A DNA stretch of 64,000 nt, from assembly GCF_009914755.1 (NCBI RefSeq), contig NC_060931.1; one strand, written 5' to 3'. Source of the stretch: the human T2T-CHM13v2.0 reference genome, Homo sapiens. Under the pieces are notes generated by a model. That model did not search any database. It saw only the letters and a list, made by a program, of their open reading frames with translations, and was not told the origin of the DNA. Made by a program: the position numbers and the translations under genes. This document shows, piece by piece, positions 41,888 through 47,549 of the stretch (within the stretch, counting starts at the first letter, position 1; every line of letters starts with the position of its first letter).

Positions 41888-42729
41888 GATCTAAAGAAAA
41901 TATTCTAGTATGGAAAACAACCATGTTCAGAAATGACTATAAAATGCAAAATGAAAATTTGATTAATTAAATTGAAAGTACAAAATAAGGCCTGCACATT
42001 GCTACAATAACAATATAATATCTTAGAAGAAGGGAGAGATCCATTGTGCAGAGGTGAAAGGAAATATAGAAGTGGGACTTTAATTAGAAATATAGAAGTG
42101 GGACTTTAATTGTTTAACTTCGAACAAGAAAAATAGAATTGAATGTATATTATCATATGTTCATATTACTCCAAAAGACATAAGCATGGTCATAACCATA
42201 CCAATAAATTCTAATAGCCACAAGGGGAGAGATCTTGTCTGATTTTTTTCATATCTGCATTATCAATGTGTAAAATACAATGGTCTCAAAAATTTATTGA
42301 ATTAACTAATGAGATATCACTTATAAAAGGAAAGAAAGATATGTGATCTGAAAGACAGTTTATGCAAACTTAATTGGTCGCTTTCCCATTTTCTGTTGAA
42401 AGTTTATATACCAAGAAAATTTCAATCCTAACATGAATCTACAGAGGCTTTCCACATGTATATTTGAGGCTCCAAGTTTCATAAAGAATGATACAAGGAG
42501 AACAAAGTAAAGGAGAGCATATAACTTAAATTTATTTAACCCTTAAATAATATTTATTATAAACATTAATTTTATAGAGATTGGAAAAAAATTACAGAAT
42601 AAAATGAGACTAGAGACAAGAGTGAGAAGATGCTAAATATAAAACTTAGACAACAGACTTTCCACATACACAAAATTATTGTTGCAGTGTTTTTTAAAGT
42701 AACAGAAAATTGTAAAGACAAAATTACAG

Positions 42730-43842
42730 GGCAAGTGCGCATGCACTGCCTCCATCAACCCAAGTCAGGAACATGGCCGTGTGGTCGCTGTGGGTGGGCA
42801 GGCACCAGGTGCAGCACCTACTGGCCTCGAGTGCCTTGTAGGAGAGCAAGGGATGGCCGCTTCCATTCTGCACGGCCACCCTGATAACTGCTGGTGTGGA
42901 CTGCTGTTCTGAGGACGCTCCTGATGAGCTTGGGCCCTCTCTTGCCCAACAAGCCTTAAGGGTAAAGCTGTTAAACTGGAGAAGGAAGTCCAGGATTTAA
43001 CCATGAGATAGCACAGAGCTGTAGCTGATTGTGAAAACATAAGGAGGCAAACCGAGAGATGTGTGGAAGATGCCAAGATAGGTGGCTGACATTTTGGAGA
43101 CGACTACACAGTAAATTTCTGAAGAATCAGAGCCTGGGAACCAGAAGCTCACTCTGGAGAAGGTCTTCCGAGGGTTGTCACTTTTAGAAGCAAAGCTGAA
43201 AAATGTGTTTGCCAAGCATGGCCTGGAGAAGCTATCACCCATTGGTGACAAATATGACCCCCAAGAGCATGAACTCATCTGTCATGTGACAGCTGCTGTT
43301 GGGGTGCAGCCTAGCACCGTGACATTAGTAAGACCAGATGGCTACAAACTTCATGGCTGCACCATTAGACTTGCCCGGGTGGAAGTTGCTGTGGAGTCTC
43401 AGAGAAGACTGTGAAGAGGCCATCAGGAACTGGATGTTCTCCCAGAGTCCAGTCACCTATGCTTCTTTTATTTATTAAACTAGGTTTGTATTGTACATGA
43501 GGTACTTCATGTGATATGTTTTGGATTTAGTCATATTGGCTTTATTTCTAAGATATTCTATTGATTTAATGTGACCTGTTTGGTCTCATCAGAAGTCTTA
43601 TCATTCGGCATTTGAACAGTGTGACAAGTGTCCCAATGGACTTTATCAAAACCTGCTTAGGAAAATTAGTACTCTGATGAATTTGAATCCAAAATCCTTT
43701 TAACTATATGTTTTCAGCTACATGTTCCTTCCTAGTGGTCCCTATAACAGAGAGTGTATAATATCTTGTATTTTGTGGAAAAAGGAGATGGCACGGATTG
43801 GTTCAACATTTGGATACTTAGAGGATAAAGCTTCATGGTTGT
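42730..43842 (+). pseudogene. GRPEL2P: GRPEL2 processed pseudogene (CDS 42773-43414 with stops, frameshifts and a ~35 nt deletion; 3'UTR cut at the L1 junction)
   Basis: Intronless; MAVWSLW...KAVKLEKEVQDL...LLEAKLKNVFAKHGLEKLSPIGDKYDPQEHELICHV...GYKLHGCTIRLARVEVAVESQRRL matches mitochondrial GrpE-like 2. Confidence 0.95.
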
Positions 43843-46800
43843 AGATACAGACACAAAGAACCCTTCAAAAAAAATCAATGAATCCAGGAGCTGGTTTTTT
43901 TTAAAGGATTAACAAAATAGATAGACTACTTGCCAGACTAATAAAGAAAAAAAGACAGAAGAATCAAATAGACATAACAAAAAATGATAAAAGGAATATC
44001 ACCACTGATCCCACAGAAATACAAACGACCATTAGAGAATACTATAAACACCTCTATGCAAATAAACTAGAAAATCCAGAAGAAATGGATAAATTCCTGG
44101 ACGCATACACCCTCCCAAGAATAAACCAGGAAGAAGTCAAATCCCTAAATAGACCAATAACAAGTTCTGAAATTGAGGCAGTACTTAATAGCCTACCAAC
44201 CAAAAAAAAGCCCAGGAACAGACAGATTCACAGCCGAATTCTACCAGAGGTACAAAGAGGAACTGGTACCATTCCTTCTGAAACTATTCCAAACAATAGA
44301 AAAAGAGGGACTCCTCCCTAACTAATTTTGTGAGGCCAGCATCATCCTGATACCAAAACCTGGCAGAGACATAACAAAAAAGAAAATTTCAGGCCAATAT
44401 CCCTGATGAACTTCGATGTGAAAATCCTCAATAAAATACTCGCAAAATGAATCCAGTAGCACATCAGAAAGCTTATCCACCACGAGAAAGTTGGCTTCAT
44501 CCCTGGGATGCAAGGGTGGTTCAACATATGCAAATCAATAAATGTAATCCATCACATAAACAGAACCAATGACAAAAACCACATGATTATCTCAATAGAT
44601 GCAGAAAAGGCCTTCAATAAAATTTGACACCCCTTTATGCTAAAAACTCTCAATAAACTAGGTATTGATGGAACATATCTCAAAATAATAAGAGCTATTT
44701 ATGACAAGCCCACAGCCAATATCATACTGAATGGGCAAAAACTGGAAGCATTCCCTTTGAAAACTGGCACAATGCAAGGATACCCTGTCTTACCACTCCT
44801 ATTCAACATAGTATTGGAAGTTCTGGCCCGGGCAATCAGGCAAGAGAAAGAAATAAAGGGTATTCAAATAGGAAGAGAGGAAGTCAAACTGTCTCTGTTT
44901 GCAGATGACATGATTGTATATTTAGAAAACCCCATCATCTCAGCCCAAAATCTCCTTAAGCTGATAAGCAACTTCAGCAAAGTCTCAGGATACAAAATCA
45001 ATGTGCAAAAATCACAAGAATTCCTATACACCAACAATAGACAGAGAGCCAAATTATGAGTGAACTCCCATTCACAACTGCTACAAAGAGAATAAAATAC
45101 CTAGTAATCCAACTTACAAGGGATGTGAAGAACCTCTTCAAGGAGAACTACAAACCACTGCTCAAGGAAATGAGAGAGAACACAAACAAATGGAAAAACA
45201 TTCCATCCTCATGAATATGAAGAACCAATATCATGAAAATGGCCATACTGCCCAAAGTAATTTATAGATTCAATGCTATCCCCATCAAGTTACCACTGAC
45301 TTTCTTCACAGAATTAGAAAAAACTACTTTAAATTTCATATGGAACCAAAAAAGAGGCCCTATAACCAAGACAATCCTAAGCAAAAAGAACAAAACTGGA
45401 GGAATCATGCTACCTGACTTCAAACTATACTGCAAGGCTGCAGTAATCAAAACAGCATGGTACTGGTACCAAAACAGATATATAGACCAATGGAACAGAA
45501 CAGAGGCCTCAGCAATAACACCACATATCTACAACCATCCTTTGACAAACCTGACAAAAACAAGCAATGGGGAAAGGATTCCCTATTTAATAAATGGTGT
45601 TAGGAAAACTGGCTTGCCATATGCAGAAAAATGTAACTGGACCCCTTCCTTACACCTTATACACAAATTAACTCAAGATGAATTAAAAACTTAAATTTAA
45701 GACCTAAAACCATAAAAATCCTAGAACAAAACCTAGGCAATACCATTCAGGGCATAGGCATGGGCAAAGACTTTATGACTAACACACCAAAAGCAATGGC
45801 AACAAAAGCCAAAATTGACAAATGGGATCTAATTAAACTAAAGAGTTTCTGCACAGTAAAAGAAACTATCATCAGAGTGAACAGGAAACATAGAGAATGG
45901 GAGAAAACTTTTGCAATCTATCCATGTGAGAAAGGGCTAATATCCAGAATCTACAAATAACTTAAACAAATTTACAAGAAAAAAATGAACAGCCAGGCTC
46001 AGTGGCTCACACCTGTAATCCCAACAATTTGGGAGTCCAAGGTGGGCAGATCATGAGGTCAGGAGTTCAAGACCAGCCTGGCCAACATGGTGAAACCCCA
46101 TCTCTACTGAAAATACAAAAATTAGCTGGGCATGGTGGCGCGTTCCTGTAATCCCAGCTACTCGGGAGGCTGAGGCAGGACAATTGCTTGAACTGGGACC
46201 CAGGATGGGGAGGTTGCCGTGAGCCGAGATGGCACCACTGCACTCCATCCTGGGCTACAGAGGGAGACTCCTTCTCAAAACAAAAAAACAAAAACAAAAA
46301 CCAACCCCATCAATAAGTGGGAAAAGGATATGAACAGACGCTTCTCAAAAGAAGACATTTGTGCAGCCAAAAAACATGAAAAAATGCTCATCAACACTGG
46401 TCATTAGAGAAATGCAAATCAAAACCACAATGAGATACCATCTCATGCCATTTAGAATGGTGATTATTAAAAAGTTAGGAAAAAACAGATGCTGGAGAGG
46501 ATGTGGAGAAATAAGAATGCTTTTACACTGTTGGTGGAAGTGTAAATTAGTTCAACCATTGTGGAAGATAGTGTGGTGATCCCTCAAAGATCTAGAAATA
46601 TCATTTGACCCAGCAATCCCATTACTGGGTATATACCCAAAGGATTATAAATCATTCTACTATAAAGATACATGCACACATATGTTTATTGCACCACTGT
46701 TCACAATAGCAAAGACTGGGAACCAACCCAAATGCCCAACAATGTTAGACTGGATAAAGAAAATGTGGCATACATACTCCATGGAATACCATGCAGCCAT

Positions 46801-47137
46801 AAAAAAGGATGAGTTCATGTCCTTTGCAGGGACATGGATGAAGCTGGAAACCATCATTCTCAGCAAACTAATACAGGAACAGAAAACCAAACACCGCATG
46901 TTCTCACTCATAGGTGGGAGTTGAACAATGAGAACACATGGACACAGGGAGGGGAACATCACACACCGGGGCCTATTGAGGGTTGGGGTCTAAGAGAGGG
47001 ATAGCATTAGGAGAAATACCTAATGTAGATGACAGGTTAATGGGTGCAGCAAACCACCATGGCACATGTATACCTATGTAACAAACCTGCATGTTCTGCA
47101 CATGTATCCCAGAACTTAAAGTATAATTTTAAAAAAA
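43843..47137 (+). mobile_element. L1PA7-like 3' half (ORF2 RT to polyA), fused to GRPEL2P
   Basis: [11 protein letters not shown] motif in ORF 44637-45059; 3'UTR gttctgcacatgtatcccagaacttaaagtataat. Confidence 0.95.
45991..46300 (+). mobile_element. AluS inserted in the L1
   Basis: Full Alu within the aaaaaaacaaac tract of L1 ORF2. Confidence 0.92.
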
Positions 47138-47549
47138 TTACAGAAAACTTTCCTGAAGTAACAGAAGAAAATTGAAAATTGCACATAAATTTTATAAACT
47201 GAAAAGGAAAAGAATTAACATATAAAGTAAGATGATGCTAGGCATAAAAATCAGACAACAGTGATTCCATCTATTGATATTTCTGTAATTTTAAAACAAT
47301 TTAAGAAAAAGTAGAAGAGAAGATTCCTGGAAGTCTTGAAACGTTATAATAAAAGAAATGATTACTTAGCAAAAAAATACTAGCTGAGCATTAGAACAGA
47401 TGTATTCCAGCATTCAGTAACAAAGAATGTGATAAGTATTCTGACATTAAAAAAGATTGATTATATTTGCCTAGATATTTACCATTCAGATGTTCATTTT
47501 TTATAGAAATTCCAATTTCTATCTAATACCAACATTTTTTGGACTTCAT

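What the first reader, a model, noticed from the sequence alone, without database searches (positions are those of the whole stretch)
42720..47143. GRPEL2 mRNA-L1 chimeric retrocopy under one TSD
Seen: AAAATTACAG lies immediately before the GRPEL2 5'UTR (42720-42729) and immediately after the L1 tail (47134-47143). Joining the flanks restores continuous old L1 ORF1-like text (gtaaagac-aaaattacag-aaaactttcctgaa). The pseudogene has no polyA of its own and joins L1 ORF2 directly at ~43843 (possible agata microhomology). Established: U6-L1-type chimeras form in one integration by template switching or RNA ligation; mRNA-L1 versions are less common. Inference: a single 4.1 kb event, which also dates the pseudogene to L1PA7 activity.
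Basis: partly seen in the sequence, partly recalled or inferred. Interest (0 to 1): 0.7.

Follow-up and report, generated by a model that had tools for sequence, protein, structure and literature searches.

The report
GRPEL2 pseudogene fused to LINE-1
A dead, spliced copy of the GRPEL2 messenger RNA is joined directly to half of a LINE-1 retrotransposon between one pair of 10-base repeats, so both likely entered the genome in a single copying event roughly 25-30 million years ago: an apparently uncatalogued example of a known, uncommon kind of chimeric insertion.

Summary
The structure is real. AAAATTACAG lies at 42720-42729 and 47134-47143. Between them sit a spliced GRPEL2 copy (42731-43843, from the mRNA's 5' start; about 2.87 kb of 3'UTR and the polyA missing), a same-sense 5'-truncated L1 (43844-47127) and a nested Alu. 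The flanks belong to one old ORF1-like repeat, in register across a single copy of the 10-mer, and the repeat starts at a TTTT/GT nick. Non-CpG divergence of the two parts is alike (41/1015 vs 103/2821; p=0.56). One correction: the junction shares 1 base, not 'agata'. Best reading (0.7): one L1 retrotransposition in which GRPEL2 RNA was joined to L1 by template switch or RNA ligation. Not excluded: a later L1 in the pseudogene's tail plus a deletion; the X-chromosome GRPEL2 copy shows that sequential L1 insertion happened in this family. Primate orthologues could not be examined, and the L1PA7 label is recalled, not tested. mRNA-L1 chimeras are a described class (17 in PMC13174262); this locus is absent from that table and, at 1,114 bp, exceeds its 1,000-bp limit. 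New member of a known kind; no sign of function.

The parts
42595..42729 (+). 5' host flank: old, decayed L1 ORF1-like repeat (HAL1-like; that name is recalled)
   Evidence: aligns to 6 homologous loci L062-L067 upstream of the shared motif, 0 of 418 local controls as good
42720..42729 (+). 5' target-site duplication AAAATTACAG; bottom-strand nick reads TTTT/GT
42730..42730 (+). single G where the parent has A: untemplated base (copied cap, inferred) or a later change
   Evidence: the X copy also has a G just before its first templated base
42731..43414 (+). GRPEL2P3: spliced exons 1-4, 5'UTR to stop; ATG 42773, stop at codon 23, 1-base loss in exon 2, 35-base loss at the exon 3/4 join
   Evidence: 82-93% to four parent exons on chr5; GrpE domain E=5.6e-17
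43415..43843 (+). first 429 bases of the GRPEL2 3'UTR; ends internally, no polyA; about 2.87 kb of UTR missing
   Evidence: no non-repeat match to the missing UTR in the window
43843..43844 (+). mRNA/L1 junction: one shared A, no extra bases, no splice donor in the parent
   Evidence: parent and 9 L1 copies
43844..47127 (+). 5'-truncated primate L1, starting about 3.02 kb into a full-length element (about 1.04 kb into ORF2), with complete 3' end; ORF2 broken
   Evidence: 89-91% to many copies; RVT_1 E=2.4e-17; ruler from the X-chromosome L1
45991..46298 (+). Alu nested in the A-rich stretch of L1 ORF2 (AluS-like by recall); inferred later insertion
   Evidence: L1 is continuous across it in 3 copies shown; 79-84% to other Alus
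47128..47133 (+). very short L1 tail (TTTAAA) running into the 3' repeat
   Evidence: similar ends in 3 of the 10 related L1 copies printed
47134..47143 (+). 3' target-site duplication AAAATTACAG
47134..47185 (+). 3' host flank, continues the ENFP-type ORF1 motif of the old repeat
   Evidence: one of five family copies hits Pfam Transposase_22 weakly, E=0.06, below cut-off

Best explanation
A spliced GRPEL2 copy lacking its 3' end is fused in the same direction to a 5'-truncated L1 between one 10-base repeat pair, and it likely arose in a single L1 retrotransposition. Inferred steps: L1 ORF2p nicked TTTT/GT in an old ORF1-like repeat, primed on the L1 RNA's A-tail, copied about 3 kb of L1, then continued on GRPEL2 mRNA from a point 429 bases into the 3'UTR through to its 5' start (template switch; or the two RNAs were ligated beforehand - the sequence cannot separate these). 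Second-strand cutting 10 bases on made the duplication. An Alu likely landed in the L1 afterwards. The product is inert: GRPEL2 frame dead at codon 23, L1 without promoter or ORF1.
For: One repeat pair at the exact outer ends; no second repeat pair around either part among the 20 largest families shown or by reading; host repeat in register across one copy, so no target loss; introns absent and 5' end at the annotated start with one extra G; clean 1-base junction, same sense; non-CpG private changes 41/1015 (4.0%, CI 3.0-5.4) for GRPEL2 against 103/2821 (3.7%, CI 3.0-4.4) for L1, Fisher p=0.56; only 6 bases between L1 end and repeat, so no leftover second A-tail; sense, 3'-cut mRNA plus truncated L1 has a precedent (CDC42 row, Table S5 of PMC13174262).
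Against: No orthologues could be read, so co-arrival is untested. The repeat is short and 4 of its 10 bases merge with the A-tail. The divergence intervals allow several million years between parts; over all 19 ORF2 copies the L1 estimate was 5.8%, and it fell to about 3.9% only with the 4 copies of its own clade; tree branches gave 4.9% and 4.5%. The X-chromosome GRPEL2 copy of similar divergence did receive a later, separate L1 in its 3'UTR. No microhomology supports a switch.
Confidence: 0.7

Rival explanations
1. Two events: a full-length polyadenylated GRPEL2 retrocopy made the 10-base duplication; an L1 later inserted at its A-tail; a deletion (at L1 insertion or later) removed 2.87 kb of UTR, the A-tail start and the L1's own 5' repeat.
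For: Gives the same final layout. The X-chromosome copy shows a separate L1 with its own duplication inside a GRPEL2 retrocopy. A 1-base junction suits end joining. Divergences cannot exclude a gap of several million years.
Against: Needs two insertions at one small site plus a multi-kilobase deletion in a short time; only 6 bases lie between the L1 end and the repeat, with no trace of a second tail or second duplication; ages match.
Confidence: 0.15
2. Read-through from a source allele: a 5'-truncated L1 once sat in the GRPEL2 gene's own 3'UTR in an ancestral population; the gene's mRNA ended at the L1's polyA, was retrocopied whole, and the allele was later lost.
For: Explains sense orientation, full 5' end, no internal polyA and one duplication. 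The parent has an endonuclease-like AT/AAAG site 17 bases before the junction, a site type listed in Table S5 of PMC13174262.
Against: No L1 in the human parent there; 636 of 3,261 UTR positions (20%) have such a site 7-20 bases upstream; the other two retrocopies found do not carry this fusion; needs a lost allele.
Confidence: 0.07
3. One event that was longer at first (whole mRNA with polyA joined to L1, like the RPL21 row of Table S5), later shortened by an internal deletion.
For: RPL21-L1 precedent with internal A-tail; the pseudogene has suffered another deletion (35 bases).
Against: Needs an extra multi-kilobase deletion with no homology at its ends.
Confidence: 0.05
4. Cis- or trans-splicing of GRPEL2 to an L1 RNA, or twin priming.
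For: Both are proposed for other mRNA/L1 chimeras (PMC13174262).
Against: The junction lies inside the last exon, the parent has no GT directly after it and the L1 part does not start after an AG; twin priming gives opposite orientations, here they are the same.
Confidence: 0.02

Closest known systems
mRNA/lncRNA-L1 chimeric insertions (Law and Burns 2026, PMC13174262, 17 cases; CDC42 and RPL21 rows)
   Same: mRNA 5' part, sense, fused to the 5' end of an L1 under one duplication at an endonuclease-type site
   Different: Most of the 17 are short first exons on near-full-length L1, often at splice donors; here the whole coding region plus 429 bases of 3'UTR (1,114 bp, above their 1,000-bp limit) meets a half-length L1 at a non-splice point
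U6/L1 chimeras (PMC4476161; PMC6789731)
   Same: cellular RNA copy upstream of a 5'-truncated sense L1, one duplication, direct junction
   Different: U6 is full length and ends in a cyclic phosphate used by RtcB; the GRPEL2 part is cut internally, more like the 3'-truncated U3 and U5 partners
Ordinary processed pseudogene with a later nested L1 (the X-chromosome GRPEL2 copy)
   Same: same parent, similar divergence, sense L1 following UTR sequence
   Different: There the L1 is full length with its own duplication and the pseudogene resumes after it to the distal polyA site; here nothing resumes

Membership tests
processed pseudogene of GRPEL2 | exons joined without introns, colinear with the mRNA | tested here: met
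   four chr5 exons joined
processed pseudogene of GRPEL2 | own polyA tail | tested here: not met
   ends internally at 43843
RNA/L1 chimeric insertion | cellular RNA copy fused directly to the 5' end of an L1 | tested here: met
   direct junction, one shared base
RNA/L1 chimeric insertion | one target-site duplication around both parts | tested here: met
   10 bp, chance 0.12% or less, host repeat in register
RNA/L1 chimeric insertion | L1 endonuclease-type cut site | tested here: met
   TTTT/GT (top strand AC/AAAA), a non-consensus variant; similar variants are listed in Table S5
RNA/L1 chimeric insertion | A-rich tail at the L1 3' end | tested here: inconclusive
   only TTTAAA plus the repeat's AAAA; similar short ends in relatives
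RNA/L1 chimeric insertion | both parts arrive together in evolution | not testable with these tools
   no primate genomes held; equal divergence (p=0.56) is consistent but not decisive
spliced mRNA/L1 chimera (cis- or trans-splicing) | mRNA part ends at a splice donor; L1 near full length | tested here: not met
   junction inside last exon, L1 half length
U6-type RtcB ligation product | 5' partner ends in a 2',3'-cyclic phosphate | not testable with these tools
   chemistry of the vanished RNA end cannot be read from DNA
L1PA7 subfamily | subfamily-diagnostic 3' end bases against curated models | not testable with these tools
   no repeat library held; the 3' end fits my recollection of L1PA7 and divergence is about 4% non-CpG

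The most novel reading that the evidence does not exclude
This is a representative of an uncounted class of long mRNA-L1 chimeras (whole coding region from the cap site, over 1 kb) that size filters have hidden, formed when L1 reverse transcriptase jumps, or RNA is ligated, onto the free un-tailed 3' end of a short GRPEL2 isoform cut at a proximal polyA site (GATAAA 14 bases before the junction). If common, many '3'-truncated' pseudogenes next to L1s would be single events that can deliver an intact reading frame with an L1-supplied 3' end.
Probability: 0.15. Interest if true: 0.55.

Novelty: new member of a known kind. Interest (0 to 1): 0.3.

Why it matters
It adds a long, non-spliced case to a small catalogue of mRNA-L1 chimeras and shows that the published 1-kb limit misses such cases. 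With the X-chromosome copy (later L1, own duplication) and the chromosome 13 copy (tailless), one gene gives three contrasting outcomes. The locus itself looks inert, and no open question is settled by it.

Tried and rejected
'agata' microhomology: rejected, 1 shared base. Alternative 15-base repeat at 42586-42600: rejected, poorer fit to the host repeat (upstream score -4.8 against +4.3; profile E 0.26 against 0.00077, though that profile was seeded on a motif spanning the site and so favours the 10-mer join). A 44-base likeness between the flanks (D2) reached 1 of 300 shuffles; left unexplained, probably A-rich decay of the old repeat. First chance test was spoiled by self-matches and redone. 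Direct genome searches with the flanks found no relatives near the junctions. Idea that the X copy is a second chimera: rejected. Splicing and twin priming: rejected on junction and orientation. Proximal polyA signal and endonuclease site before the junction: both are the same few bases and occur by chance at 14% and 20% of UTR positions. Pfam scan of host pieces: 1 of 6 gave a weak L1 ORF1 hit, the window's own flank none. Buzdin 2003 could not be opened.

Full report
Observation. The sequence shows AAAATTACAG at 42720-42729 and at 47134-47143. The 10-mer occurs 4 times in the window against 0.54 expected; the other two are at 42588 and, reversed, at 47283. After removing self-matches, 75 of 63,582 random positions taken as a 5' end give a match of 10 or more bases inside the 38 bases at the L1 tail, and 2 of 63,582 random 38-base stretches hold the real 10-mer. 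So the pair is more than chance, although four of its bases merge with the A-tail on the 3' side. The nick it implies reads TTTT/GT on the bottom strand, a variant of the TTTT/AA consensus; comparable variants appear in Table S5 of PMC13174262.

The GRPEL2 part. A search of the own genome found the parent on contig 5 and two more copies, on contigs 23 (X) and 13. Window 42731-43843 matches four parent exons joined without introns, 82-93% identical. It starts at the place where the RefSeq row starts (42731), with one G at 42730 where the parent has A; reading that as a copied cap is inference (PMC2912911 mentions reverse-transcribed caps, passage seen). The frame stops at codon 23, and 35 bases are missing at the exon 3/4 join. 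Homology continues 232 bases past the RefSeq end (43611). The X copy follows the parent to a distal AATAAA and an A-tail, which shows that about 2.87 kb of 3'UTR is missing here; only Alu-like repeats in the window match the missing part.

The junction. Aligned to the parent and to 9 L1 copies, the switch falls at 43843: parent and L1 share one A, with no extra bases. 'AGATA' is L1 sequence (6 of 9 copies; 3 read AAATA) and the parent differs from the second base on. At least one shared base is expected at 46% of random junctions. The parent has no GT right after the join and the L1 part does not begin after an AG, so it is not a splice. GATAAA lies 14 bases upstream and an AT/AAAG site 17 bases upstream, but 444 and 636 of 3,261 UTR positions have such neighbours.

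The L1 part. 43844-47127 is a primate L1, 89-91% identical to the best copies (39 of 40 scored hits other than itself in each), with a reverse-transcriptase domain. Measured on the full-length L1 of the X locus it begins about 3.02 kb from the 5' end, about 1.04 kb into ORF2. An Alu interrupts it at about 45991-46298; L1 is continuous over that point in the 3 copies printed. The tail is only TTTAAA before the repeat; 3 of the 10 relatives printed end alike. The name L1PA7 fits my recollection of 3' ends but was not tested; no repeat library is held.

The host. The flanks found no relatives by direct search. A degenerate 30-base motif spanning the site found 13 places against 0 for the reversed control; the six fetched are related to each other at about 60-69% over 100-860 bases around the motif in 13 of 15 pairs and carry an ENFP-type motif; one of five scanned hits the L1 ORF1 domain weakly (E=0.06, below cut-off). 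Because the motif was chosen to span the site, agreement inside it is circular. Outside it, the 120 upstream bases align better than all 418 local controls and 299 of 300 shuffles; the 120 downstream bases beat 410 of 418 controls but not shuffles (120 of 300 as good). The rival 15-mer at 42586-42600 scores -4.8 against +4.3.

Age. In three-way comparisons with parent and X copy, changes private to this copy outside CpG were 28/720, 3/88, 7/143 and 3/64, in sum 41/1015 = 4.0%. For L1, the 3' end gave a median 3.8% over all pairs of 19 copies; ORF2 gave 5.8% over all 19 copies, which mix in younger elements, and 3.7-4.1% with the 4 of 19 copies in its own clade. Pooled 103/2821 = 3.7%, Fisher p=0.56. 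Tree branches were 4.9% and 4.5%. The Alu gave 3.7% on about 191 sites (25 of 40 hits used, some duplicates). With all sites (56/1095 = 5.1%, summed) and the 0.17% per million years used in PMC13174262 the age is near 30 million years. The intervals (3.0-5.4 and 3.0-4.4) leave room for several million years between the parts.

An internal control. In the X copy a full-length L1 also follows GRPEL2 3'UTR in sense, but it has its own duplication and the pseudogene resumes after it. That is what a later insertion looks like, and the window lacks it; it also shows that such second insertions occurred in this family, which keeps the two-event rival alive.

Mechanism. Shown: layout, repeat pair, junction, orientation, similar divergence. 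Inferred: one target-primed reverse transcription that copied L1 then GRPEL2 RNA. Template switch and prior ligation cannot be separated; PMC6789731 (abstract and one discussion section read) leaves both open for 3'-truncated partners, and PMC4476161 (passages) proposes internal switching for U5 and U3. I give 0.7 to one event with this junction, 0.15 to later L1 plus deletion, 0.07 to read-through of a lost source allele, 0.05 to a longer single event later deleted.

What is known. PMC13174262 (introduction, two results sections, most of the methods, all three parts of Table S5) lists 17 mRNA/lncRNA-L1 chimeras; GRPEL2 is in neither text nor the 6 readable supplements (one large PDF could not be read). 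Its pipeline kept only 5' parts under 1,000 bp; this one is 1,114 bp. PMC2104539 (passages) states that mRNAs are among known chimera partners. Buzdin 2003, which I recall listing such cases, could not be opened, so it may or may not hold this locus. 'GRPEL2P3' occurs in one paper, as a row of an expression table; 'GRPEL2 + pseudogene + retrotransposition' gave none.

Verdict. A real and probably single-event mRNA-L1 chimera, new as an instance, known as a kind, without sign of function. Interest 0.3.

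Noticed in passing
L018/L020 (G000:C23, about 63.114-63.124 Mb, minus strand): Full-length GRPEL2 retrocopy reaching the distal polyA site, with a full-length L1 inserted later in its 3'UTR under its own duplication of about 13-16 bases; an Alu abuts its 5' end.
   Followed up: yes
L019:5408-5847 minus strand (G000:C13:88182407-88182846): Third GRPEL2 retrocopy ends inside the coding region with no polyA, between imperfect direct repeats of about 25 bases (tailless type). 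Two of the three copies found lack the mRNA's 3' end.
   Followed up: partly
window 43072-43090: 35 bases missing at the exon 3/4 join: one deletion, or an alternative AG acceptor 32 bases into exon 4 plus loss of TTT; the other two copies keep the normal join.
   Followed up: partly
window 43612-43843: RefSeq ends GRPEL2P3 at 43611, but 93% identity to the parent continues 232 bases further.
   Followed up: yes
window 45991-46298: Alu nested in L1 ORF2 at an A-rich stretch; its duplication is decayed; divergence close to that of the L1.
   Followed up: partly
window 42061-42111: Perfect 25-base direct repeat with period 26 in the upstream flank.
   Followed up: no
window 42586-42664 and 47131-47269: A 15-base exact match and a 44-base 77% match between the two flanks; not explained, possibly an old local duplication in the host repeat.
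   Followed up: partly
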